A stretch of DNA of 64,000 nucleotides. Origin: a virus. Its lineage: Duplodnaviria > Caudoviricetes. The notes under the pieces are model-generated. The model saw nothing but the letters and a program-made list of their open reading frames with translations, was not told the DNA's origin and did no database searches. The DNA is taken from IMG/VR virus record IMGVR_UViG_3300027776_000009; one strand, written 5' to 3'. Both the position numbers and the translations under genes were made by a program. The stretch's first letter is position 1, and each line of letters opens with the position of its first letter. Positions 872-62,997 of this stretch are shown one piece after another.

Positions 872-911
872 AAAATAGGTGGGCTAATTAGCCCACCTAG
901 GCTGTATGCCG
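870..911 (-). terminator. hairpin terminator (U-tract on - strand, TATGCCG on + side)
   Basis: TAGGTGGGC-TAATTA-GCCCACCTA with an A-run on the left and GTATGCCG on the right, just after the stop of 916..1356. Confidence 0.75.
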
Positions 912-4769: not shown

Positions 4770-4800
4770 AAAAATAGTGAGGGAGTTACCTCCCTCACTG
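4770..4800 (-). terminator. intrinsic terminator after vRNAP beta gene
   Basis: AGTGAGGGAG-TTAC-CTCCCTCACT stem, followed on the minus strand by ATTTTT. Confidence 0.7.
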
Positions 4801-51511: not shown

Positions 51512-54500
51512 TTAAGGAAGTTGACGAACAGCCAACCTGAAATTGGACAGGGTTAACACCCCGGTGATTTCAACGATAGTCCCTTGAACATTGAATTGAT
51601 CATTGGGGTCCAGCGTAACGTAACGCGAGAAACTGACTGGGTATTTCGCGAGCGTATCGGCGCAGTACACCGAGATATCAAACACCTGATCGCCCCCAAA
51701 GTCCAAATGAATAATCCCGGTAGCAACCCCTGCGGGGATACTCACCTCGGCGTATAAGGACACCTCGTAGCGCCGCCGGAAAATCTCCATGGTGTTTGAA
51801 CGAATGTACGTTCCTGCCCGGGTAAAGCCCTTCCCGTGAGTTTGTGCGGACGCTGACGTCATGTCTACCAGTGTGTTCGCCGTGCTTATCGTCACCGTGA
51901 CATCATTGACATCGTGATACTCCGTCAAGAAGCACTCATTCTCAACATCGACCGAGTGATCACCCAGATGATCGTAGGCAGCCCCAGCAATGCTGAACAT
52001 CTTAGCGGGTAGGGGGCTATATGCATCACCGGGGTAGACAGACACATTCCGCAGCCGGAGTTTTCGTGCAGGGATATTATCATTGGAGGTGTAGATGGCG
52101 TCAAAATCAATGACTCCAGCGGGAGGAGAAACTCCGGTGTACCGCACATCCATATTGGATAAAGTTAACCGCCCATCGGAATCATTCATGTAAACTGACA
52201 TGAACGCGGTATCGTTCGCGGTCCCCTGCACCCCATCGACGATAACATCACCGTAGGACGTCATGCGTATTGGGTTCGTAATCGTGTTACAGACAATATT
52301 CTTGGCAATAATGCCTGCACCACCGGCTAAGTCCAAGGGATCCGTGGTGTCAAACACGAGGTTCTCAAGTCGCGTATATGCTTGAGACCCCGTGTTAATA
52401 ACCGCCGGAGAGCTCCCGTCGGCAGAAAGAGTCAGGTCACGAAGAGTCAGTATTGCGCCCAACGGGGTTGATATGATGGTGCCCGAGGTGCTTCGAATAA
52501 CCGCATTTGGAAGCCCCATGATTTCCACCCGCTGACCAGATACAGAGTTGCACCGAAGCATCTCGATACCTAGATTGACATCGCCAACAACCAAATACTT
52601 ACCCGGCTCAACCAACCACGTGTTTGTGTCGACCAGATTGGTCGAGAAATCACCCAACCGCCTCACCAATTTTACATTTGGGTAAAGGCGTTTCAGGGCG
52701 CCGTATAACGGGTTCAGTTGGACGTAATTCTGATAACCCGCACTGACGGCTCCGCTGGAGTCGTACTTTACGTTAGCCAAATCTTCGTAGTAGTTGACTT
52801 CAATACACGGAAGACTTGGATCGGTTCTTGGTAACAGCAACCCACTCGGATTTCCAGCCCCTAACTCGATTGCTGAGTTATCAGCAATATCAATAACGAC
52901 GGCTGACGTCATGGGGTCCAAAGAATTTCTCTGGAACTCCGCCACAATGTAGTTGTCATGCCCTATGCGTATTCGTCCGCCAGTGTCCGCGTTGACGCCA
53001 TTATTGAAGAAAATGGAGCAGTTTTCGTGTACTCGCAAGCAGTCGCTTACAACATCACCTCCAGCCCAGGCTGCGGTCACTGTCGCCCCTATGTTTACCA
53101 TGGGTGAAAAGGCATCAGCATTGTATCGCAGTTCGCCAACAAAGGAATCCAGCATCAAGCCATCTACCTTGCAATCGAACCAGAAATGCGACAGCCCAAC
53201 CCCCCATTGAAAACTGCTGTGGGGGGTAACTGGGTGCGTGTAGGCGCGATATGTGGACAAAGTAATGTTGTTGGCAAACAACGCGTAAACCTTGTTGGGC
53301 GTTATATAACCAAGGTTGGCACGAGTCAGCGATAGTTCCCCATACTGACCGGTAAAACCGCGATCATCAAGAACCAGTCTCTTCTTAAGAGAGGGGGGTA
53401 ATGTGATCAGGTACTCATACGCTGCATCGAATGTCGCAAAAGAAGCGGAGGCCGGAAGAGCTTGCTGAGGACTAACGGTGTGACAATACACCACGACTTC
53501 GCTCGTGCTTTGCTGTGCACGTTGTGCAAGAGTGGTTACGCCGGCGATGGCTGCGTTCAGGTTCTGCTCTATGGTTTGCTGACTGCTTAGCAATTCCGCA
53601 GATACAGCATCCTCGTCCATGTACAGCGTAAATGAAGGAGTACCCGTCACGCTGTCAATATAGACAATTGCACTATCCCCTACCGTGTGCCCATAAGGCA
53701 TTGGTAAGATCAGTGGCGTAAAGAGAGGGTCCAGCCACGTTTTCAGCAGCATTCCTTGGGCGACATTAGGTGGGAAAACCGCGTGGGTAACAATATCAAC
53801 CGCTGGCTGAATCGGCTGCCCTGGAAAGTAGTTATCCCAGTTTGGCTGAGTCAACCCTGCGGTTCCCGCAGTTGTGCCAGAAACCGCATAGCTAGGCGCG
53901 TCAAGCGTCAGCCGCGGAGTTATCCCGATAGGCTCGTACCCGTTTCCAACATCTAGCGTAACTACGACGTAGAACACTGCCAGCTCTGGATTAACGGGTC
54001 CGTCCGTATAGATGTTCGTGGTAACAATATCGTGCTGGGTGTTATCGGGTGACACGCTGACTGCTGCGAACGAGAGCTCGTTTGTCGTACGACCCACAAC
54101 AAGCAGTGTCTTACGCCCCAACTCAACTGCCAGATTCTGCGTACTGATGTTGTGATAAATCTGCGATCCACCACCCGGATAAGGGAAGGAGTTGTCAGCA
54201 ATCGAAGTATCAAGCGTTGTCTGTTGGTTTTGTCCGAATGCAGTATCAGTAATGAGTGCCGATATACCCCCAACCCCTGCTCCCGTGTAAGCATCGCGTA
54301 ATGCAGTAGCGGAGTATGACGCTGGAGCAAGCATCATACCGACTTGATAGACTGCGCCGTTTGGTGCTGTGGTAATCTCCCATCCAAAACGAAATGTTTT
54401 GGATGCAGTAATGAAATCTGTAACAAGATCTGTTTTGACAACCCCGAAACCGGCTGATCCATACCCCAGGGACGGTTCGGCTCCGGTCACATCAAACACG

Positions 54501-54784
54501 AACTCACCAGTCTGGCCGTCAACAATAATATCGACGCTATCAATGACAGATGCTGTTAAAATCGTTGTGTTAATAGTGGGAGTAATGTCCCACAGAGGAA
54601 TGGTCTGACTACCTCCTCCTCCTCCTCCGGTGCCTAACTCAACAATACTTTCAACACCGTTGTCCTTCTTGATAAACATTTTACCATCATAGGTATTGAT
54701 GGCTACTTCACCCAAGGCAATATCCCCAACGGTGGGAATTTTTCCGGGGACTGAACTACGCTTTAAACGAACGGGGGTTGCCAT
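51512..54784 (-). CDS. large fibre/receptor-binding protein with beta-helix-like C-terminal half
   Basis: N-terminal VRLKRSSVPGKIP....LGEVAINTYDGKMF fibre-joint domain, Gly linker, beta-rich repeats (LTLRDLTL, TRLENLVF, LTLSNMDV, LRLRNVSV). Confidence 0.75.
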   Translation of the reverse strand: MATPVRLKRSSVPGKIPTVGDIALGEVAINTYDGKMFIKKDNGVESIVELGTGGGGGGSQTIPLWDITPTINTTILTASVIDSVDIIVDGQTGEFVFDVTGAEPSLGYGSAGFGVVKTDLVTDFITASKTFRFGWEITTAPNGAVYQVGMMLAPASYSATALRDAYTGAGVGGISALITDTAFGQNQQTTLDTSIADNSFPYPGGGSQIYHNISTQNLAVELGRKTLLVVGRTTNELSFAAVSVSPDNTQHDIVTTNIYTDGPVNPELAVFYVVVTLDVGNGYEPIGITPRLTLDAPSYAVSGTTAGTAGLTQPNWDNYFPGQPIQPAVDIVTHAVFPPNVAQGMLLKTWLDPLFTPLILPMPYGHTVGDSAIVYIDSVTGTPSFTLYMDEDAVSAELLSSQQTIEQNLNAAIAGVTTLAQRAQQSTSEVVVYCHTVSPQQALPASASFATFDAAYEYLITLPPSLKKRLVLDDRGFTGQYGELSLTRANLGYITPNKVYALFANNITLSTYRAYTHPVTPHSSFQWGVGLSHFWFDCKVDGLMLDSFVGELRYNADAFSPMVNIGATVTAAWAGGDVVSDCLRVHENCSIFFNNGVNADTGGRIRIGHDNYIVAEFQRNSLDPMTSAVVIDIADNSAIELGAGNPSGLLLPRTDPSLPCIEVNYYEDLANVKYDSSGAVSAGYQNYVQLNPLYGALKRLYPNVKLVRRLGDFSTNLVDTNTWLVEPGKYLVVGDVNLGIEMLRCNSVSGQRVEIMGLPNAVIRSTSGTIISTPLGAILTLRDLTLSADGSSPAVINTGSQAYTRLENLVFDTTDPLDLAGGAGIIAKNIVCNTITNPIRMTSYGDVIVDGVQGTANDTAFMSVYMNDSDGRLTLSNMDVRYTGVSPPAGVIDFDAIYTSNDNIPARKLRLRNVSVYPGDAYSPLPAKMFSIAGAAYDHLGDHSVDVENECFLTEYHDVNDVTVTISTANTLVDMTSASAQTHGKGFTRAGTYIRSNTMEIFRRRYEVSLYAEVSIPAGVATGIIHLDFGGDQVFDISVYCADTLAKYPVSFSRYVTLDPNDQFNVQGTIVEITGVLTLSNFRLAVRQLP

Positions 54785-54805
54785 ATGGCTGACTCCTGGC
54801 TATTT

Positions 54806-54848
54806 AGCCGTCAAAAAATCCAGAGGGTGGCTGGGCCACCCTCTGGAC
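54806..54848 (-). terminator. intrinsic terminator inside the fibre operon
   Basis: TCCAGAGGGTGGC-CCA-GCCACCCTCTGGA (13 bp) followed by TTTTTTG on the minus strand. Confidence 0.8.
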
Positions 54849-54860
54849 ACGTGTAAAGGG

Positions 54861-55838
54861 TCAGAAAGAACCGCCGTCGATAGCACCATTAATCCAATCA
54901 GTTCCGTCAAACATCAACACCTCACCAGTAGCGGGAGTATTGATGACAACATCGTCAAGATCGTCAATGACTACAGTCTGGCCTTCCCAGAAGCCGTCTC
55001 CGGAATACCGGAGGAATTGACCGGTAGTGCCGGGAATCGTTTCCCCAGGATCAACGTTTTCCCAAGAGGAAATGGTGGAGTTCCACCGCAACAAATGGTT
55101 ATTACCGATAGCCGTAAGACTCACGTTGGAAAGATTTTCCAACGGAGTAGCCACGATCAGCGCGTTAACATCGTCTGTAAAACCGGCGATCGCATTGGTA
55201 TCCAGCGGGATATTGGTCCAATTGGTACCGTCAAAACTGAGGACGTCACCCGCGATCGCCCCAGTGATAACACCGAGGTCACTGATAGCCGCCGGAACGT
55301 TAAGAACCCCCGACCAATCCACAGAACTCGCAGTCCCCGCGGTGTACTCCACGTAACCATCCGCTTGGTCCAGTTTGGTGTCATCCACCACGAAATAAAG
55401 AAGACCAGTGGCAGTTTCTTTGACAGTATCGCCAACCTGAACTTCGGCGGTAGTCAGTGCGTAACGGGCCGCGGTGTTAACCACCGGCACCAGTCGCTCA
55501 ATGGCGGCCGCAGGCAGGCGCGCAATGTTCAGCGTACCACTGGTGATGTTGGATGCGTTGGTTGTGTCGACGTTCTGAACGTTGCCCAAGCTGATGGTCG
55601 ATTTGGTAATAACGACAGCGCCTGTTTCGCCGTTGACGCTGTCCACCGTGTTGACCTGGGCGCCATCGGCGATTCCCGCCAGTTTATCGTGGTCGGCCTT
55701 ACCGCCGATACCGTAGACGTTGCTGCCGTTACCAATAAAGAGTGTGCCGCTGGCGTGGCTATAAGCCAGCTCGCCGTCTTGCAGGGTAGCGGGGGCGGCG
55801 GTGACGGCGCTGCGTTTGATGCGAATAACGTTGGACAT
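54861..55838 (-). CDS. fibre subunit with N-terminal KRS joint domain and C-terminal DGGSF
   Basis: IRIKRS....P..L.DGELAY....LFIG; V.SVNG.TG.V; SLGNVQNVD; four L.DL.DV....G.VL.(F/W)DG..W.N-type repeats; ends IDGGSF. Confidence 0.8.
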   Translation of the reverse strand: MSNVIRIKRSAVTAAPATLQDGELAYSHASGTLFIGNGSNVYGIGGKADHDKLAGIADGAQVNTVDSVNGETGAVVITKSTISLGNVQNVDTTNASNITSGTLNIARLPAAAIERLVPVVNTAARYALTTAEVQVGDTVKETATGLLYFVVDDTKLDQADGYVEYTAGTASSVDWSGVLNVPAAISDLGVITGAIAGDVLSFDGTNWTNIPLDTNAIAGFTDDVNALIVATPLENLSNVSLTAIGNNHLLRWNSTISSWENVDPGETIPGTTGQFLRYSGDGFWEGQTVVIDDLDDVVINTPATGEVLMFDGTDWINGAIDGGSF

Positions 55839-55879
55839 GATGGTGCCTTTTAAGGAAACGTTGGGGTGATGAAAGGTGT

Positions 55880-56239
55880 TTAGTAGGTTCCGCCGTCAAG
55901 ATCTTGATTACCGTAGTATTTCCAAAGACCGGCGAAATCGTCAACAGATGGAGCGGGGATAGCCGTGGGTGAACCTAAAATCGCCAGCCAGTTTTTCTGG
56001 GGGTCGAAGGTCGTGGTGAAGCCGGTGCCGACGGCGTCGTCGGCATACCCAATGTAAATGAAGGTATTGACAGATGCAAGGACCGTTCCACGGAGCTCCT
56101 CGATATCGATTCGATAAACTCCAGCGTCAGAACCCACTGGTCGTTGAACAAATACCAGATCCGTATCTATCAACCCTCCTGGTAATGGACTGAGTTGTTT
56201 GACGTCCTTGGTATTGGCCAAGGGTATGGTGTATGACAT
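55880..56239 (-). CDS. small fibre adaptor ending in DGGTY
   Basis: 119 aa with YI.YADD..G..F motif; C-terminus LDGGTY. Confidence 0.75.
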   Translation of the reverse strand: MSYTIPLANTKDVKQLSPLPGGLIDTDLVFVQRPVGSDAGVYRIDIEELRGTVLASVNTFIYIGYADDAVGTGFTTTFDPQKNWLAILGSPTAIPAPSVDDFAGLWKYYGNQDLDGGTY

Positions 56240-56240
56240 A

Positions 56241-56771
56241 TCAATCGAGCCTCATAAAGTAACCACCGAGATCGAGGAGAGTCTGGTCATCCACTCGCAG
56301 TATCAACGAATCATCAGGAGGTAATGCTAAGTGCATTAATAAAACCGTGGCTTCACCTACCCATCCTATACTGCCCGGAGATGCGGTAAAGGTGTAGTCT
56401 CCCAGTCCGACCAGAGATTCATTAAGAACATCCTCAGTCTCTAGATTAATCCCGCACTCTTCCAACAGTACGGGAAGGAGCTCGTGTGATTCAGTTAGCC
56501 CAGGTCTGACCAGTTCGGGCCAGGTCTCCCCAATGGCGTCAGTCAGGTCAATTCTCCGATAAAACAGAGTTCGTTTACCCGAAAAACGTTGGGTGTCTGT
56601 AGGCCTTATCGTGATCTTCGTATTACGCGGATCGTAAGACGAGTTCGGGAGCGGGTTTTCAAATACCAGATCGTCCACCGTAAACGGCTGTCGATTCTGT
56701 GGATTGCAGGTGTTGATGTTGATGACGAGCCTAACACGCCCGGTCAGTGACAGATCGGTCCCATCAGACAT
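56241..56771 (-). CDS. virion adaptor protein (paralogue of 62494..62997)
   Basis: NT.I....Y.R.DL...SHELLP.L...GINL...D...E.L...Y...A.P.S.G..G shared with 62494..62997. Confidence 0.75.
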   Translation of the reverse strand: MSDGTDLSLTGRVRLVININTCNPQNRQPFTVDDLVFENPLPNSSYDPRNTKITIRPTDTQRFSGKRTLFYRRIDLTDAIGETWPELVRPGLTESHELLPVLLEECGINLETEDVLNESLVGLGDYTFTASPGSIGWVGEATVLLMHLALPPDDSLILRVDDQTLLDLGGYFMRLD

Positions 56772-56876: not shown

Positions 56877-59800
56877 TCAGAAGTTGTCGTCGAAGTAGTG
56901 GGCTACCGTTTTCACGGTAACCGGATTGGCTGCCTCACTATCGTGAAAAATCAACCATCCAGCACCGCTGGCGACTTTGACAACCCCCGTCCCGGTGAGA
57001 GGATTACCCGCGGGTGTATAGTCCAGGATAGCCTGGAGTGGGGATCCGCTGCCAATCAATACCTTGGTGTCACCGATGATTCCCGAAGAGGTCAATCCCG
57101 AGAACTTCGGGCTGTAATACCCTGTGTTTGACGGATCGTCACCAACGATCAGGACACGACGAGCTTCCGTATAGCTTAGCATCATGTCGTACCACCCGTT
57201 TTCGTTGGCTCCAGAGGTTCCTCGTGCTAAGATTGAAAAGGCTGAGGTACTACTAGAGACCGTTCCAACCAGTGTTCCGTTGTAATACGCCGACAACGTA
57301 GTGCCAACTCGCGCGATGCGGCACTCGGCGTCAATGGATGGAGTCGTGATAACGCTACCCACGAGAGTGGCGTTATTGTAGACTTCCAAATTACCGGTGG
57401 TGGCGTTGTACTGAAAACGCAATGTTCCGGTGCTGTAGTCATACGTGGTGGCGCCAGTTGCTACCCCCAGAGCTTTTTCCTGACCATTACCCTCGAAACT
57501 GATCCATTTGAAGCGTAGATCGAAATCTGAGTTAGCCGGGATCAGTTGGTCCGCTACGAGGTGTCCGCTACTATTACTCGTCTGAGCACGGTGGATCAGT
57601 AGTCCCTTATTTTGGAGACAGCGGAACATAACCCCGTTAGCAGCCGTGTCTTTACCGTCCGCATCCGGCGAAGCGGGTGAGAACGTAACAGGTTCATCAA
57701 CACGGGTACCTAAGGGAGTGGTCGGAACAGTGTCTATCTGAGTAAGTGGGGCAGTGGCGTCTGTGGTGTATGCGAAGTTGCAGCTATACGTCGTCCCATT
57801 GTCTTTCATGAGCCCCAGTCCAAGCGTTCCGATCCAGTACTCATTAGCCACAAACGACGTTCCACTCACTCCATTGCTAAATGAGATTCGCAAGCCATTC
57901 ATATCTGGTGCGGTTTCGAGACTCGCGTGGACATCTCTCGCACCCGCGTGATCACGCACCCAGGCACCGCCATCCCAGCCGTACTTCTTCCAGAACGCAC
58001 TTTCATACGTACTGTATTTCGCATGGGTTGGCGGTAGCATGAAGGGGGTTACCCCGTAGGCGTCGGCCTGATCACCCTCGTAGGAGAAGAACATATTGCT
58101 CCCAGGGAGATAGATCAGCGGGCGACACAAAAGCCCCGTGGTATCTCCCGAGTACGCGCTGAGTTCCGTTGTTGCCGACGTGATCCCGGTGCGTACTGCA
58201 AACTCACAGTTCGCATTCCCGTTCGACAGATAGGTACCATTGGTGAACGACGCAATCCCGCTTGTCTTGGTGAACACGCTCGGAAAGTTACCACTATATC
58301 CTGCAACATGAGATGACAGGAAGCCTTTGTTTCCACCAATAGTCGCAGGGACTGCACGACATTGTGCGGAGGCGGTTTCAGGACCATAGAGGTAACTGGC
58401 CTGCATATTGTTGGCACCGTATTGGAACCTCAACATGGTCCGGTCATTACCCAGTGGGTTTGACACCCCCGCCACCCACCATCCGTCGACACAGCGAATG
58501 GAGTCAGAGATCCGCAATAGGTTAGCCAGAGTCCAGGTAAACGAGGTGTAGTTCACGCCATTGGTCGTCGGATTAACCGCAGTACCTAACCCCGTCGACC
58601 ACCAGACGTACCCCAATCGGAAGCCACCGCTAGTGACCCCTCCGGCCAATACCGACGAGACAAAGAGAAATTGATCGTCTCCGACATTATCCGGATCGAT
58701 AATCATCGCTGATACGTTTGACCAATTGCTGTCCGTAATACCTGCGTAGGTAAATGTAGGCGATCCGGTGGTTGGGTTATGGACGCTCCAGGAGAGCGCG
58801 CCAACGGCTGCATCGGGGTTGGATAGTTTACACAAGCCACCATCGTAGAGAACCCAAAGAGTGCCTGCAGTGTCATTCTTGGCACAGATTTGATACACCT
58901 TATTCGTCACACCCGCCGGAGCTGGGATCTGCTCGACCGTATCCAGTGCGGGGTTAATACGCCACAGTCCGGTATCAGCGCAACCAATGTAGGTATAGCC
59001 CTTGGTGCAGTCGCCATCGGATACTGCGGTAACAGGCAACGCTGGCGAGGTGTTCGCATTGAAGAGAAGCTTTGACCCCCGCAGTACATCGTAAATTGCA
59101 ATCCCGTTCTTTGTACGATTGCATTCAAATGCGGCTACATAACGAGTTGCGTCAGGACTACGATACGTTACACCGCCCCACTTGGTATTGACCTCGTAGG
59201 CTTGGTCTTGCGCGATTCCGCGGAAGGTGTTTCCACCCGCGCGAGTCTGAGGTAGGAAAGCGGTTCTGGGGATCCAGAGATTACCCGCAAAACCCGCAAT
59301 GAAGTCAAAAACCTCGACTTTGTATTTAGCCGGAGTCGAGAGGTCTCCGGTGTCGGTGACTCGAACACGAAACAGTTTCTGATAATGAGGATCAGTCCAG
59401 TTGTCCACGTTCAGCGTCAAAGAACCTGACATCGTTGCAAGATTACTGGTGTCTTGCAGAGGTCCTGCGGGTGTATTTCGCTGAGCGTAGGTATTCTGTC
59501 GAGGATCGAGTACATCGGGAAGGACTGGTTGATACACGTAGCCCTTGCTCATGGTTGTCGGCGTCGAAGCCGCCGACTCATAGCCGGCGTCTCCCATCCA
59601 GAGATGCTTCATGAACAGCCCCATGGTGTTAACATGAGCGGCAGGAAAGGCTAATGAATGCTGGAATGCATTTCCAACACCGATAATGTCAGTGCTACCC
59701 CAAGGTCTCCAGAGCGACACGCTAGAATCCGTGAGTACATTTGAAGCTTCCGTGCCTCCCGATATACGCCCACCATGTAGTGTCATCGGAGAAATATCGT

Positions 59801-60476
59801 CCAATTGATAGGCTGACGATGTCAGTGATCCCCGCAATCCTCGGTAGTTGAAGTATACGCTATTGACAGCATTGCAGACCTTGGTGAACAAACCGCGCAA
59901 ATCTTCATACACACGGGGAGACGTACGCTGGTTAGACGAGTCTACAACGGGATGTAGAAAGAGGCGATACGTCACACTGAGCTGCACGTCCGTGTTCTGA
60001 GTACACGGTGTACTCAAGCGCAGTATGGTTAACTTGGAATTGCTCTCGGAATTAACCGTGTGCGACGAGTAGTCGTCCTTGGTCGTATAGAGTCCCAATA
60101 CGCGAATAGTCCGCGCTGAACCAACGGGTGCTGGAATCAGGAAATTGAAGGTCACTACATCCGGATCATTGACCGTAGCGCCGGGTGTGTAGGTGGGGAA
60201 ATCTTGGTTAACGTTGACGTTACCATCACTGCCGCACCATGCGTTCAGTCGCGTCGGCTTAATGTCAGCGGACCTGTAAAAGAGCTTCCACCGCGCAGAG
60301 GACGAATGATTCTGACTGGTAGCGTCCCGTTTAGTCGGGATACTGAAATCACCGATCAGTGTAAACATCCGTTTGAACGCAGGTAAGCAGATATCATTAC
60401 ACACCGGCGGCCCAACCGGTTCTTTTCGCCCATCGGGGTAGATATATTCCAAGAACGCCGATCCAACAATTTTCAT
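56877..60476 (-). CDS. large beta-rich virion protein (putative fibre/receptor-binding)
   Basis: Likely start MKIVGS at 60476 (GGAGGT Shine-Dalgarno, just after the upstream stop). Propeller-like middle and lectin/SPRY-like C-terminal segment (RIARVGTTLSAYYNG). Confidence 0.7.
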   Translation of the reverse strand: MKIVGSAFLEYIYPDGRKEPVGPPVCNDICLPAFKRMFTLIGDFSIPTKRDATSQNHSSSARWKLFYRSADIKPTRLNAWCGSDGNVNVNQDFPTYTPGATVNDPDVVTFNFLIPAPVGSARTIRVLGLYTTKDDYSSHTVNSESNSKLTILRLSTPCTQNTDVQLSVTYRLFLHPVVDSSNQRTSPRVYEDLRGLFTKVCNAVNSVYFNYRGLRGSLTSSAYQLDDISPMTLHGGRISGGTEASNVLTDSSVSLWRPWGSTDIIGVGNAFQHSLAFPAAHVNTMGLFMKHLWMGDAGYESAASTPTTMSKGYVYQPVLPDVLDPRQNTYAQRNTPAGPLQDTSNLATMSGSLTLNVDNWTDPHYQKLFRVRVTDTGDLSTPAKYKVEVFDFIAGFAGNLWIPRTAFLPQTRAGGNTFRGIAQDQAYEVNTKWGGVTYRSPDATRYVAAFECNRTKNGIAIYDVLRGSKLLFNANTSPALPVTAVSDGDCTKGYTYIGCADTGLWRINPALDTVEQIPAPAGVTNKVYQICAKNDTAGTLWVLYDGGLCKLSNPDAAVGALSWSVHNPTTGSPTFTYAGITDSNWSNVSAMIIDPDNVGDDQFLFVSSVLAGGVTSGGFRLGYVWWSTGLGTAVNPTTNGVNYTSFTWTLANLLRISDSIRCVDGWWVAGVSNPLGNDRTMLRFQYGANNMQASYLYGPETASAQCRAVPATIGGNKGFLSSHVAGYSGNFPSVFTKTSGIASFTNGTYLSNGNANCEFAVRTGITSATTELSAYSGDTTGLLCRPLIYLPGSNMFFSYEGDQADAYGVTPFMLPPTHAKYSTYESAFWKKYGWDGGAWVRDHAGARDVHASLETAPDMNGLRISFSNGVSGTSFVANEYWIGTLGLGLMKDNGTTYSCNFAYTTDATAPLTQIDTVPTTPLGTRVDEPVTFSPASPDADGKDTAANGVMFRCLQNKGLLIHRAQTSNSSGHLVADQLIPANSDFDLRFKWISFEGNGQEKALGVATGATTYDYSTGTLRFQYNATTGNLEVYNNATLVGSVITTPSIDAECRIARVGTTLSAYYNGTLVGTVSSSTSAFSILARGTSGANENGWYDMMLSYTEARRVLIVGDDPSNTGYYSPKFSGLTSSGIIGDTKVLIGSGSPLQAILDYTPAGNPLTGTGVVKVASGAGWLIFHDSEAANPVTVKTVAHYFDDNF

Positions 60477-60477
60477 C

Positions 60478-61482
60478 TCAACCTCCAAGGTTTCCACCCG
60501 CCACTCGTGTGACGGTGTATGCATTATTCACCACACCGGACTCGAACTGACCTACTGTTTCGTCCGTTCCAGAGACCGTCTCTAACCGATAAACCACTCG
60601 GATGAGAGCGTAATCGTTAATGATGGTACCTGTTTCAAATTGCAGTGGCGTATCTGTGTATTCCAAGGTATCCTGACGATACACCACGCGGGTCAACGAG
60701 TAGTCGTTGACCAAGCTACCCGTTTCAAACTGCGACAAGACATTGTTAGCGGCGGCTAATCCGTCATAATCCGCCCAGCTATCGTAGGCGGTTTCATTGT
60801 CTCGTCCTGGGCGTCTGTATATCGCTCCAAACCTTAGCCGTGCAGGGAGATCTGTTACAACCTCTTTGGGTTCTGATGCTAAAAACGTTTGCACGAGAAC
60901 CCAACTACTGCCGCCCCATCGCTCAACAATCACTCCGACGTATCTGGCCTCGTAATTCTGACCGATCTCGTCCGGAGTTTGGTGTGCGAAGGCGGGCTCG
61001 GGAATCTGCAGCGTCGACCCTGCACCACTTAGACTAAATCCGGCGTTGTGTGGTATGGTGTCGTCAAACACCCCGGCATAGGTAACGTAGTGTTTCCACA
61101 CCAGTGCGGATGACGGATAGAGTACGTCATTAATCACGGTTCCGGTGCTATAAGTCTCTGCGTCACTTGCCGGAGTGGTGTAGATGACAACGTCCCTGTA
61201 GCTTTCCATGGGGGTGTTGCGATCTACATAAAAGCGAAACACCTTATCGGTCCCGGGTATTCCACCCGGGAGATAATAGGCGGCAGTGGCTGACGTTGGA
61301 AATAAGGAAACGATAGGAGTACCTGATATCTGAACCCACTCGGTTGTGTGCTGATTCAATTCCCCAATAACAGAAGCTTCTAGATATACCACGGGGGTGC
61401 ACACCGCAGACTGGTTCTCCCCCGCGGACTGAATAACTACCACCTGTCGCGTCAGGTGACCTACCATTAAAATCTGCGGCAT
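60478..61482 (-). CDS. virion protein with Ig/PKD-like N-terminus and three C-terminal repeats
   Basis: SAG.NQ....W.QISG.P (PKD-like). QFE(T/S)G...N.Y...RV repeated three times. Confidence 0.7.
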   Translation of the reverse strand: MPQILMVGHLTRQVVVIQSAGENQSAVCTPVVYLEASVIGELNQHTTEWVQISGTPIVSLFPTSATAAYYLPGGIPGTDKVFRFYVDRNTPMESYRDVVIYTTPASDAETYSTGTVINDVLYPSSALVWKHYVTYAGVFDDTIPHNAGFSLSGAGSTLQIPEPAFAHQTPDEIGQNYEARYVGVIVERWGGSSWVLVQTFLASEPKEVVTDLPARLRFGAIYRRPGRDNETAYDSWADYDGLAAANNVLSQFETGSLVNDYSLTRVVYRQDTLEYTDTPLQFETGTIINDYALIRVVYRLETVSGTDETVGQFESGVVNNAYTVTRVAGGNLGG

Positions 61483-61516
61483 GATTCCTCCGACTCAGCG
61501 AGTGTTTATCCTGAAG

Positions 61517-62494
61517 TTATTCATCAAAATAAGGACTGGTGTACGGAACGTAATCCCCTAAGAGATTCAGCCGAATCCATGACAGATCCACGGACTTTGT
61601 TGTTAACTTGAAGACCAAGATGTCCCCCTTTTCAAACACTAATCGCTCTGACGGAACTAGCGCTTCTGCATCATTGAAGACGAGGGTCCCCGGCATTCCG
61701 GCGCCTACGGCTACGGTGTTAAAACTGATAGTCCCAACCGCTGTCATCGTACCGGTTACCCCCTTGGTCTTGTAGATGGTAACCACGTTGGGTTCAGTGA
61801 TATTCCCATTACAGAGGGTCCTATGAAGAACCGCCGGGGGCTTAAGACGATCATTCGGGAGGGTGTGTTGTAACGGGATTTCAAAATCCCGAATCGCAAT
61901 GTAACTCCCGATCTCTTGATCCAGAAACAACGGAGCACTAGCGCCAGCCGTTAGTTCCAAGTGATCAATGTCCTGGTCCATTTTGATTCGGACTAAACGA
62001 AGTACGCCGCCTACCTTCTCAGCAAAGTTGTTCCCAGAGGTAAAGTTGCTAATAACAACCCACAAACTACCTTCATGGTAGAGAATATCCGGGGGGGTTA
62101 TTTGGTCATCAACCGTACGCTCCGTGAAGAAAGCCGTTGTAGGTTTCCACAGTTTGACCTGACCAAACGCCTGAAGTGTATTGCTGACCTGAGTCAAGCT
62201 ATTACTGACCTCGGTCACCGCGGCTGTGACAAACTCTGTCGTAGCGATTTGGGTGTTATTGGTTCCGGGATCCGGCGTCGGGGCCTCTGGAGTACCGTTG
62301 AATGAAGGAGAGTCGATAGGCGCAAGACCTTCACGGGCAGCTTGTATCACCATGTCGACGCTGACTTCCTGATCTCTTTCTTCAGCGGGGGCGGTCGCAC
62401 GATACAATAACAAGGTATCGGTGAGTTGCAGCTCCGTCGCAATCGGTAACTCTCCTTGCGTTACAGTGTTCGTAATGGGAATCGAGCCAGCCAT
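61517..62494 (-). CDS. tail fibre protein
   Basis: APIDSPSFNGTPEAPTP..GTNNTQIATTEFV, the P2 gpH-type fibre motif. Confidence 0.75.
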   Translation of the reverse strand: MAGSIPITNTVTQGELPIATELQLTDTLLLYRATAPAEERDQEVSVDMVIQAAREGLAPIDSPSFNGTPEAPTPDPGTNNTQIATTEFVTAAVTEVSNSLTQVSNTLQAFGQVKLWKPTTAFFTERTVDDQITPPDILYHEGSLWVVISNFTSGNNFAEKVGGVLRLVRIKMDQDIDHLELTAGASAPLFLDQEIGSYIAIRDFEIPLQHTLPNDRLKPPAVLHRTLCNGNITEPNVVTIYKTKGVTGTMTAVGTISFNTVAVGAGMPGTLVFNDAEALVPSERLVFEKGDILVFKLTTKSVDLSWIRLNLLGDYVPYTSPYFDE

Positions 62495-62997
62495 TAGCTT
62501 CTCCTCAGGTATAAGTTACCGACTTTGATTAAACGTTCATCGACAGTGCGGATCAAGGTAAACCCCAAATCACCAGTACCTCCTAATTGAATCTGAACGT
62601 CGCCAATAAAGCCTAAACTATCCGGCGTGGCCTTTAGTACATAGGCGGTATCCGTCAGGTCTTCATCGACGATGTCTGAAGGGGTGAGGTTGATTCCGTA
62701 ATCTGTCAAGATAGCGGGTAAGAGCTCATGTGAACGAGTAGCGCCTTCGACAGTCACCACGGTATCTTGGGCGATCAGATCACTTAATGCGTCTCGGGTG
62801 TACTCCATGACTAGGTTATTGCGAATCCCGTAGATGTCATAGACCAGGATCTGCACCCGCGTGTTATTACCCTCGGACACCCAAGGAGTTGGGTGCATGA
62901 TTGACAATGTGTTTAGATCCAAATCCTTTTGGAACTTTCCCGCGATGAGCTTGGCACGTATCCGCTCTTCTGCGGTCAGTAAGTAGTTTTCAGCCAT
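62494..62997 (-). CDS. virion adaptor protein (paralogue of 56241..56771)
   Basis: NNTRV...YTRD.L...SHELLPAIL..YGINL..DIV.E.L...Y.L.A.P.SLGF.G. Confidence 0.75.
   Translation of the reverse strand: MAENYLLTAEERIRAKLIAGKFQKDLDLNTLSIMHPTPWVSEGNNTRVQILVYDIYGIRNNLVMEYTRDALSDLIAQDTVVTVEGATRSHELLPAILTDYGINLTPSDIVDEDLTDTAYVLKATPDSLGFIGDVQIQLGGTGDLGFTLIRTVDERLIKVGNLYLRRS

What the first reader, a model, noticed from the sequence alone, without database searches (positions are those of the whole stretch)
51512..56771. Candidate plug-and-socket polymerising fibre: anchor, initiator, self-repeating subunit, tip
Seen: four consecutive genes. The 119-aa protein ends LDGGTY (C-terminal motif only). The 325-aa protein begins with an IRIKRS...P..L.DGELA...LF domain and ends IDGGSF (both motifs). 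The 1090-aa protein begins VRLKRSS...P....LGEVA.N..DG.MF but lacks the DGG tail (N-terminal motif only). A 13-bp U-tailed terminator sits right after the 325-aa gene, and that gene's 5' half uses visibly more C-ending codons than its neighbours; both point to higher expression. Known: KRS...GE.A domains start joined segments of long phage fibres. Inference: DGGx(F/Y) is a plug that docks into the KRS domain. The middle protein could then chain head-to-tail n times between an anchored initiator and a terminal adhesin, giving a pilus-like filament whose length is set by the subunit ratio through terminator read-through.
Basis: partly seen in the sequence, partly recalled or inferred. Interest (0 to 1): 0.85.

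Follow-up and report, generated by a model that had tools for sequence, protein, structure and literature searches.

The report
Snap-together tail fibre of jumbo phage
Four neighbouring genes of an uncultured giant phage encode pieces of one host-binding fibre that very probably clip together end to end through a short tail peptide and a matching cap domain, as in phage T4, but nothing shows that the middle piece chains onto itself.

Summary
Four minus-strand genes (176, 119, 325 and 1090 aa) carry the stated end motifs. The 13/14-bp hairpin plus U6 after the 325-aa gene is the strongest of only three such terminators in 64 kb. The gene's 5' half has the highest C-ending codon share in the window.

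The plug-and-socket idea is well supported. In 136 unrelated phage loci, 92% of genes just upstream of a cap-domain ("KRS...GE.A") gene end in a DGGx[FY]-like peptide, against 1% of other ORFs. T4-like gp36 (ends DFGYY) followed by gp37 shows the same layout. A 3:3 model of the 325-aa tail with the 1090-aa cap scored 0.82 (best control 0.00), with the tail lying along the VRLKRS strand.

Self-polymerisation and length control by terminator read-through are not supported, and not excluded. None of 76 equivalent joints elsewhere has a terminator. Other phages keep the two joints distinct in sequence. The codon bias stops at a module boundary, which suggests mosaic origin.

The 176-aa "anchor" is a DUF7941 protein, a family shown in November 2026 to form head-to-tail filaments in phage Goslar.

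This scan has noted the same connector on other DNA at least eight times. I found no paper describing the plug.

The parts
56241..56771 (-). 176-aa DUF7941 protein: N-terminal globular domain plus tail, without the family's C-terminal domain. Probable peripheral-baseplate or filament module that carries the fibre.
   Evidence: Pfam PF25613, 82.4 bits (cut-off 27), profile positions 6-151 of 276. phrog_2935/1037 virion structural protein. Family biology from PMC13742148.
55880..56239 (-). 119-aa adaptor. It has a lineage-specific N-terminus (1-55), one copy of the widespread 'YADD..GxGF..DFAGLW' fibre repeat (about 56-116), and the C-terminal plug LDGGTY (codons 55883-55900).
   Evidence: Relative P0122 (77% identical) ends DIDGGVY. 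The 137-aa relative P0268 ends DIDGGTF and has a second, internal VIDGGTY.
54861..55838 (-). 325-aa connector. It has a type-A socket (residues about 1-46, nt 55701-55838), a small trimerisation-like domain (about 112-170), four 'G.VL.FDGT.W.N'-like hairpin repeats, and the plug IDGGSF (nt 54864-54881).
   Evidence: Pfam Mtd_N E 5e-4, below cut-off. Fourteen of the 15 relatives that start with the socket also end in [IV]D[GC]G.F. Monomer model and fold search. Interface residues 304-325.
54812..54848 (-). Intrinsic-terminator-like hairpin (14-pair stem, loop CCA) plus T6, placed 13 nt after the 325-aa stop and 27 nt before the 1090-aa start.
51512..54784 (-). 1090-aa distal fibre protein. It has a type-B socket (residues 1-51, nt 54632-54784), then a poly-Gly linker and a long beta-rich body. 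It has no plug and is presumed to be the receptor-binding end.
   Evidence: PHROG tail fibre and long-tail-fibre distal-subunit N-termini, E 1.6e-11 to 5.8e-5. tblastn of residues 1-55 hits 884 phage records, including T4-like gp37 N-termini. B-socket HMM E 2.9e-22. Interface residues 1-11, 15, 17-18, 21-22, 28. No Pfam or PDB match for the body.
62494..62997 (-). 167-aa DUF7941 paralogue that heads a second, parallel fibre module (context only).
   Evidence: PF25613, 60.3 bits. 29% identity to the 176-aa protein, E 1e-14.
61517..62494 (-). 325-aa protein of the parallel module. Its N-terminus resembles that of the 119-aa adaptor and it has the same fibre repeat at residues 54-109. It has no plug.

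Best explanation
This is a segmented receptor-binding fibre of an uncultured phiKZ-like jumbo phage. It is encoded piece by piece in assembly order.

The 176-aa DUF7941 protein ties the fibre to the peripheral baseplate or to a DUF7941 filament (inferred). The 119-aa adaptor presents the C-terminal peptide LDGGTY. The 325-aa connector receives that peptide in its N-terminal trimeric cap of about 45 residues (related to T4 gp37-N and Mtd_N) and presents its own peptide IDGGSF. The 1090-aa distal protein receives that peptide in its cap and ends the chain, because it has no tail peptide.

In the model, the last seven residues of each chain of one trimer lie as an extra strand along the V/I-R-L/I-K-R-S strand of the next trimer's cap. 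The joint is of the same kind as gp36-gp37 in the T4 long tail fibre. The default reading is one trimer of each piece per fibre.

The strong terminator ends the transcription unit after the connector gene. The distal gene and the endolysin gene behind it then depend on read-through or on an unrecognised promoter (inferred).

What is shown: the motifs, the synteny rule, the homology of the caps and the model score. What is inferred: actual binding, trimer state, the 176-119 link and the stoichiometry.
For: Phage type: split RNA polymerase beta subunits, phrog_3148 and phrog_2986.

Cap homology: PHROG and tblastn hits to gp37-type N-termini. The socket of the 325-aa model aligns to Mtd 1YU0 residues 5-48, Z 3.9, rmsd 2.6 A over 41 residues, which is weak.

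Synteny rule: 160 of 178 unique joints in the first survey. 266 of 288 upstream ORFs against 54 of 5197 background ORFs. 183 of 230 unique plug-ending ORFs are followed at once by a socket gene.

Cultured examples: T4-like VR5 gp36 ends ..DFGYY and gp37 follows. Vibrio phage 1.208.B has 174 aa ..IDGGAF, then 160 aa ..IDGGSF, then 689 aa. Ralstonia jumbo phage RsoM2USA has 572 aa ..IDGGTY, then 1258 aa.

Published: trimeric gp36 binds the N-terminal region of gp37 (PMC3004832).

Socket classes follow position. Type A (GELAYS) proteins carry their own plug in 96 of 101 cases. Type B (GE.A.N) proteins lack one in 48 of 55. The layout anchor > A+ > B recurs 25 times.

Complex model: residues 190-325 of the connector x3 with residues 1-62 of the distal protein x3 scored 0.82, best of 3 controls 0.00. 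That mark was reached by 58 of 80 solved complexes and 2 of 110 mismatched pairs. Partner pLDDT was at least 83 and the runs shared at least 93% of contacts. No PDB chain matches the socket profile, so the pass is unlikely to come from memory.

DUF7941 assignment. Family biology.
Against: There is no experimental binding or virion data for this phage, which is known only from metagenomes. The model's score says nothing about affinity or about which of several similar sockets a plug prefers. Both plugs here are of the canonical DGG[TS][FY] form, so the visible motif alone does not enforce the order 119 -> 325 -> 1090. The link between the DUF7941 protein and the 119-aa adaptor rests on adjacency and a duplicated gene pair only. 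Cultured chimalliviruses with DUF7941 arrays show no plug/socket chain beside them. The body of the 1090-aa protein has no family or structure match. About 20% of plug-ending genes in the survey are not followed by a recognisable socket.
Confidence: 0.7

Rival explanations
1. First reader's model. The 325-aa connector, having both socket and plug, also joins onto itself. Fibres would then contain n copies between the 119-aa initiator and the 1090-aa cap, and the terminator would set a high connector-to-cap ratio and thereby the fibre length.
For: The A socket of the connector accepts a canonical plug (LDGGTY from the 119-aa protein), and the connector's own plug (IDGGSF) is also canonical. Only 7 of 83 anchor plugs feeding A sockets in other phages are canonical, so this phage lacks the usual visible distinction between the two joints. 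The contact strand is nearly the same in both sockets (IRIKRS and VRLKRS). The terminator is the strongest in the window. The connector gene has the highest C3 of 48 genes. Chimalliviruses do build open-ended protein filaments, though from DUF7941 proteins (PMC13742148).
Against: None of 76 unique middle-to-next joints in other phages has a hairpin+T-run terminator, so ratio control is not part of the general design. Elsewhere, plugs feeding B sockets are DGG[TS][FY] in 49 of 50 cases, and anchor plugs feeding A sockets in only 7 of 83. In every locus with both joints the two plugs differ, which points to selection for ordered, distinct joints. Fibre length elsewhere is varied genetically, with middle proteins of 62-870 aa and chains of up to four distinct genes. 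The codon bias covers only the N-terminal half, which is the part shared at 55-65% identity with many other phage fibres. GC is 57.6% there against 52.0% in the rest, which fits a mosaic origin. The model interface also uses residues 304-316 and socket residues 15-28, which leaves room for specificity outside the motif.
Confidence: 0.12
2. The polymerising element is the DUF7941 part, not the connector. The 176-aa protein (N-terminal domain plus tail, like Goslar gp23) joins head to tail into filaments at the peripheral baseplate. The 119-325-1090 chain is then a receptor-binding end-piece, with one trimer of each protein, hung on such a filament.
For: The 176-aa and 167-aa proteins are DUF7941 proteins lacking the C-terminal domain. 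Goslar gp22 forms filaments in negative-stain EM, and gp23, which has the same truncated layout, is present at about 2140 copies per virion (PMC13742148). Each of the two paralogues here is followed by a gene with a similar N-terminus plus the same fibre repeat.
Against: There was no test of self-association or of binding to the 119-aa protein here. DUF7941 filaments are chains of single protomers, while the plug/socket pieces are presumably trimers, so the geometry of the junction is unexplained. DUF7941 arrays of SPN3US, LucasX and Xoo-sp14 have no plug/socket genes beside them.
Confidence: 0.25
3. Shared stalk with exchangeable tips. The 119-325 stalk is made in excess, and its canonical plug can take any protein with a B socket. 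These would include fibre proteins encoded elsewhere in the roughly 195-kb genome, and the 1090-aa protein would be only one of several tips.
For: The plug is canonical and B sockets are near-universal in their contact strand. The terminator uncouples stalk and tip expression. Some phages carry several socket-bearing fibre genes per locus, and some carry orphan plugs.
Against: Within the 64-kb window only two sockets were found. The rest of the genome could not be searched because no genome is held.
Confidence: 0.1
4. The end motifs are generic folding or trimerisation signals of fibre proteins and do not contact each other. Gene adjacency would merely reflect clustering of fibre genes.
For: There are no binding data. 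About 20% of plugs have no adjacent socket.
Against: The plug sits almost only on the gene immediately upstream of a socket gene (92% against 1%). It is at the extreme C-terminus in nearly all cases. Terminal (type B) proteins lack it. The complex model places it on the socket with controls at 0.00.
Confidence: 0.04

Closest known systems
Phage T4 long tail fibre, gp36-gp37 joint (distal half-fibre)
   Same: The distal protein starts with the same KRS...GE.A.N..D.K cap. The partner is encoded immediately upstream and ends in a D-x-G-x-aromatic peptide: VR5 gp36 ends ..DFGYY. Published work says trimeric gp36 binds the N-terminal region of gp37 (PMC3004832).
   Different: Here there are two such joints in series, and the middle protein has both ends. 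T4 gp36 has no cap and is held by the monomeric gp35 knee. No gp34, gp35 or gp38 relatives are present. The proximal end is a DUF7941 protein of a chimallivirus, not gp9/gp34. The papers I read do not describe the plug peptide itself.
DUF7941 filaments of Chimalliviridae (Goslar gp22/gp23; phiKZ gp126/gp127), PMC13742148
   Same: The 176-aa and 167-aa proteins belong to this family and have the gp23-like layout without the C-terminal domain. The family is associated with the peripheral baseplate and joins head to tail by strand addition.
   Different: In Goslar, host-recognition domains are fused to DUF7941 modules. Here they would be separate polypeptides attached through an adaptor and plug/socket joints. 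Neither polymerisation nor attachment was tested here.
Bordetella phage BPP-1 Mtd (Pfam Mtd_N, PDB 1YU0) with tail fibre Bbp9
   Same: It has a small N-terminal trimeric cap at the start of a distal receptor-binding protein, and the upstream-encoded fibre protein ends in a Gly-Gly peptide (..ADLGGIA). There is a weak structural match of the socket to 1YU0 residues 5-48.
   Different: Mtd has the QFRGG...RE..VDTD variant of the cap. The Pfam score of the 325-aa protein is below the curated cut-off (20.4 against 26.3 bits). Caps of this variant in my loci are not preceded by DGGx[FY].
Donor-strand joining of chaperone-usher pilus subunits (analogy only, from my own knowledge)
   Same: A short terminal strand of one subunit completes or extends a sheet of the next. 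A subunit with both donor and acceptor can in principle polymerise, and a subunit lacking one of them ends the chain.
   Different: The subunits are unrelated. Pili use monomeric Ig-like subunits and need a chaperone and an usher. Here the units are trimers and self-joining is unproven.

Membership tests
T4 gp37-type N-terminal cap (socket), type B | N-terminal domain of about 50 residues homologous to the start of long-tail-fibre distal subunits | tested here: met
   1090-aa residues 1-56: phrog_17885 E 1.6e-11, phrog_35830 / 19966 / 1699 'long tail fiber protein distal subunit'. tblastn to 884 phage records including gp37 homologues. HMM of 27 B sockets E 2.9e-22.
T4 gp36-gp37-type joint | The partner protein is encoded immediately upstream and ends in the conserved D-G-G-x-aromatic peptide | tested here: met
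   The 325-aa protein ends IDGGSF, 76 nt upstream of the 1090-aa start. Rule: 266 of 288 against 54 of 5197. VR5 gp36 ends ..DFGYY.
T4 gp36-gp37-type joint | Physical binding of the upstream trimer to the cap | tested here: inconclusive
   Only a model: score 0.82, best control 0.00. The mark was reached by 58 of 80 solved complexes and 2 of 110 mismatched pairs. Partner pLDDT at least 83; contacts agree at 93% or more. No experiment.
T4 long tail fibre as a whole (gp34-gp35-gp36-gp37, gp38/gp57A) | Proximal rod gp34, monomeric knee gp35, and chaperones | tested here: not met
   No PHROG or Pfam hit to these in the four genes or their neighbours. The proximal gene is DUF7941 instead.
Pfam Mtd_N (PF18454) | Score at or above the curated gathering cut-off | tested here: not met
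   325-aa protein: 20.4 bits against a cut-off of 26.3, E 5e-4. 1090-aa protein: no hit. The fold match to 1YU0 is Z 3.9 only. It resembles the family but is not a scored member.
DUF7941 (PF25613) | Score above the gathering cut-off | tested here: met
   176 aa: 82.4 bits. 167 aa: 60.3 bits. Cut-off 27.
DUF7941 (PF25613) | Head-to-tail filament formation and baseplate association | not testable with these tools
   Known for Goslar gp22 and modelled for phiKZ gp126/gp127 (PMC13742148).
Sequence shows no obvious barrier.
   The phage is uncultured. Public runs hold it only as contigs, which cannot give expression or copy number.

The most novel reading that the evidence does not exclude
In this phage both plugs are of the same canonical form, and the connector's socket demonstrably takes that form. 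The 325-aa connector could therefore add onto itself, or be skipped. That would give fibres with 0, 1, 2... connector units, with the distribution set by the stalk-to-tip ratio that the terminator imposes. It would be a length-variable, concentration-programmed tail fibre.
Probability: 0.12. Interest if true: 0.8.

Novelty: new variant of a known kind. Interest (0 to 1): 0.55.

Why it matters
If the plug-and-cap joint is real, the order in which separately encoded fibre proteins assemble can be read straight from sequence. That holds in T4-like phages, marine podoviruses, jumbo phages and, here, a chimallivirus. It would help annotate the many 'hypothetical' small fibre genes. It explains how fibre modules are swapped between phages without breaking assembly. 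It also offers a compact connector (a roughly 7-residue tail plus a roughly 45-residue cap) for engineering receptor-binding proteins.

For chimalliviruses, it suggests how separate receptor-binding proteins could be hung on the recently described DUF7941 baseplate filaments.

The survey also shows two plug dialects: canonical DGG[TS][FY] for type-B caps and variant forms for type-A caps. This hints at a specificity code that keeps joints in order. This window is one of the few cases where that distinction is missing, which makes it a good test case for whether such fibres can vary in length.

Tried and rejected
- No whole genome is held, so further socket or plug genes of this phage outside the window could not be sought.
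- megablast of the region against 50,697 phage records found no match.
- Expression test: public runs hold the phage only as Logan contigs. One 10-17-kb contig of a roughly 94%-identical strain spans the whole region in two metatranscriptome runs. This cannot show transcript ends or levels, so it gives no information on read-through.
- The monomer AlphaFold2 model of the 119-aa protein was unusable (mean pLDDT 45).
- The monomer model of the 325-aa protein was only locally confident (mean 56.7), and its fold matches are weak, all with Z of 5.6 or less.
- jackhmmer of the 119-aa protein against 102 anchor proteins of other loci found only itself. Anchors share only the plug.
- A search for fused joints (an internal socket behind a plug) found none among 391 retrieved proteins.
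- The 1090-aa body has no Pfam hit even at E 5 and no PDB sequence match. The ESM Atlas gave only a sub-threshold lead to pectate-lyase-like beta-helix proteins (0.83).
- Single-linkage clustering to count independent lineages collapsed because of shared fibre repeats. Greedy clustering was used instead.
- A first alignment of all both-motif proteins was too diverse for the search for related loci.
- A promoter for the 1090-aa gene was not identified. The generic sigma-70 scan was at chance level (11 found, 10.6 expected), and the leader motif noted elsewhere in this genome is absent upstream of the gene.

Full report
**Where we are.** The window comes from an uncultured phiKZ-like jumbo phage. 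It encodes split RNA polymerase beta subunits (phrog_3148 and phrog_2986, E = 0 and 5e-187) and many phiKZ-type virion proteins. It has no near DNA match among 50,697 phage records. Near-identical sequence occurs in wastewater, activated-sludge and freshwater metagenomes of several studies.

**The observation.**
- The four ORFs lie on the minus strand exactly as described, and the end motifs are as quoted.
- Downstream of the 1090-aa gene lies an M15 endolysin gene.
- The hairpin after the 325-aa gene has 13 Watson-Crick pairs plus one G-U, a 3-nt loop and a T6 tail. The intergenic RNA folds at -40.7 kcal/mol, z -6.8.
- With a stricter scan (stem of 9 pairs or more plus a T-run), only three such sites exist in 64 kb, and this one is the longest.
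- The codon remark is also right. C at third positions is 0.48 in the first 160 codons, the maximum of 195 windows (mean 0.291, sd 0.045), and 0.31 in the rest.

**What the ends are.**
- The first ~55 residues of the 1090-aa protein match the N-termini of tail-fibre families, including 'long tail fiber protein distal subunit'. By tblastn they match 884 phage records, mostly T4-like gp37.
- The 325-aa protein gives a sub-threshold Pfam Mtd_N hit.
- Among relatives of the 325-aa protein, 14 of the 15 that begin with the KRS...GELA domain also end in [IV]D[GC]G.F, although their middles differ completely. The exception sits on a 1.6-kb contig.
- Both ends are therefore conserved as a pair, independently of what lies between them.

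**The rule across phages.**
- I fetched 136 viral contigs that hold a cap-domain gene. I called all stop-to-stop ORFs and located caps with two HMMs.
- Of 288 ORFs ending within -45 to +160 nt of a cap gene on the same strand, 266 end in [DNSE][GACS]G.[FYW] (optionally plus one residue). The rate among other ORFs is 54 of 5197.
- The rule holds at three clustering levels.
- Conversely, 183 of 230 unique plug-ending ORFs are followed at once by a cap gene.
- The loci were found through the cap, not the plug, so ascertainment does not create the association. Many loci are related, however.
- Cultured phages show the same layout. T4-like VR5 gp36 ends DFGYY and gp37 follows. Vibrio podophage 1.208.B has three genes in series. 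So does the pair in Ralstonia jumbo phage RsoM2USA.
- The published T4 assembly pathway states that trimeric gp36 binds the N-terminal region of gp37 (PMC3004832).

**Two cap classes.**
- Type A (I.IKRS..P..L..GELAYS..LFIG) marks middle pieces: 96 of 101 have their own plug.
- Type B (LKRS....P....L..GE.A.N..D.K.F) marks mostly terminal pieces: 48 of 55 have no plug.
- The window follows the commonest full layout, anchor > A with plug > B without plug, which was seen 25 times.
- Other layouts include 62-78-aa proteins that are nothing but a cap plus a plug, and chains of up to four distinct genes.

**A structural test.**
- I modelled residues 190-325 of the connector and residues 1-62 of the distal protein, three copies each, with my own alignments.
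- The score was 0.82 (runs 0.81, 0.82, 0.88). The best of three controls scored 0.00.
- That mark was reached by 58 of 80 solved complexes and 2 of 110 mismatched pairs in the tool's calibration, which holds only roughly here.
- Partner pLDDT was at least 83, and the runs shared at least 93% of contacts.
- The interface is formed by residues 304-311, 316 and 318-325 of the connector and residues 1-11, 15, 17-18, 21-22 and 28 of the cap. The closest pairs run I320-G323 against V5-R9, and F325 against K8, S10, P17 and D21.
- The tail peptide therefore lies along the VRLKRS strand.
- No PDB chain matches the cap profile, so recall of a solved complex is unlikely.
- This supports docking but does not prove it, and it cannot rank alternative partners.

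**Does the connector polymerise?** I could not model the self-joint because only one complex job was allowed.

Indirect evidence leans against polymerisation:
1. None of 76 unique middle-to-next joints elsewhere has a hairpin+T-run in its spacer. Ratio control by a terminator is therefore not part of the system's general design.
2. Plugs that feed type-B caps are DGG[TS][FY] in 49 of 50 cases. Anchor plugs that feed type-A caps have that form in only 7 of 83, and are usually DAG.F, SGGSF or NGGSF. In every locus with both joints, the two plugs differ. This looks like selection for joints that can be told apart.
3. Length is varied elsewhere by the size and number of distinct genes.
4. The codon bias covers only the N-terminal half. 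That half is the module shared at 55-65% identity with many fibre proteins, and it has a GC of 57.6% against 52.0% for the rest. A mosaic origin explains a half-gene pattern better than expression level does.

Evidence in favour:
- This phage is one of the few in which the anchor plug (LDGGTY) is canonical, like the connector's own plug (IDGGSF).
- The contact strands of the two caps are almost the same.
- No barrier to self-joining or to skipping is visible in the motifs.
- The terminator is real and rare.

I put the polymer reading at about 0.12.

**The anchor.**
- The 176-aa protein is a DUF7941 member (82.4 bits). It matches only the N-terminal half of the profile.
- A paralogue of 167 aa heads a second module upstream.
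- Each paralogue is followed by a protein with a similar N-terminus and the same 'YADD..GxGF..DFAGLW' fibre repeat.
- The element of this locus with published precedent for open-ended polymerisation is therefore the 'anchor', not the connector. Whether it binds the 119-aa adaptor is untested.
- Cultured chimalliviruses with DUF7941 arrays (SPN3US, LucasX, Xoo-sp14) have no plug/socket genes beside them. The combination seen here is therefore unusual.

**Known or new.**
- Multi-polypeptide fibres and the gp36-gp37 joint are textbook knowledge. Three-gene fibres reminiscent of T4 were also noted in marine podoviruses (PMC4819975).
- I found no paper that names the C-terminal plug. No paper in the library holds the plug strings in a phage context. 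The T4 fibre papers and the tail-fibre atlas I read do not mention it.
- This scan has reported the same connector on other DNA at least eight times. My survey was made before I saw those notes, and it agrees with them.
- What this window adds: a chimallivirus context with a DUF7941 anchor; a passing complex model with clean controls; the two plug dialects tied to cap class; and a case where the dialects are not distinguished.

**Verdict.** The docking and the chain order are supported. Self-polymerisation and read-through length control are unsupported but open. This is a new variant of a known kind of fibre joint.

Noticed in passing
window 55353-55838 (5' half of the 325-aa gene) versus 54861-55352: There is a sharp change of composition inside one gene: C3 0.48 against 0.31 and GC 57.6% against 52.0%. 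It coincides with the end of the module shared at 55-65% identity with many unrelated phage fibre proteins, which suggests a recombination joint.
   Followed up: partly
window 54696-55853, + strand: A 385-aa open frame lies antisense to the 325-aa gene. It is most likely a by-product of the strong C-ending codon bias and not a gene.
   Followed up: no
window 876-899 and 4776-4799, - strand: These are the only other strong hairpin+T-run terminators in the window. One follows a 146-aa gene (916-1356) with the second-highest C3 (0.377). The other follows the 1409-aa RNA polymerase beta gene.
   Followed up: partly
window 56877-62997, - strand: A second, parallel fibre module: 167-aa DUF7941 paralogue, then a 325-aa adaptor-like protein with the same fibre repeat, then 334 aa, then 1215 aa. 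It has no DGG plug or KRS cap, so a different and unknown kind of joint must link these pieces.
   Followed up: partly
protein P0268 (137-aa relative of the 119-aa adaptor): It carries two plug motifs 13 residues apart, an internal VIDGGTY and a terminal DIDGGTF. This looks like a duplicated tail.
   Followed up: no
L003:3304-3540, L005:2057-2251, L024:1742-1939, L028:3355-3555: These are proteins of 64-78 aa that consist of nothing but a cap domain and a plug. They sit between a 74-177-aa anchor ending in DAG.F and a fibre protein of about 600-700 aa. They would be minimal 'washer' segments.
   Followed up: partly
L003:3583-6313 and the same layout in L005, L024, L028, L050, L064: Long type-A proteins ending W[ST][ST]A[LI]DGG[QT]F are not followed by a cap. 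They are followed by a helical 183-251-aa protein (MGNEKY.NYY..) that itself ends in KDGGSF and feeds a type-B cap. The partner of the first plug is unknown.
   Followed up: partly
L138:4480-7546 (Vibrio phage 1.208.B, MG592578): Two successive joints have almost identical plugs (TIDGGAF and TIDGGSF) and almost identical type-B caps. This cultured phage would be a practical system for testing whether such joints are specific.
   Followed up: no
window 54612 and 54819: A roughly 94%-identical strain in two wastewater runs differs by a 3-nt deletion in the poly-Gly linker behind the 1090-aa cap and by a 1-nt deletion at the 3' foot of the terminator stem.
   Followed up: no
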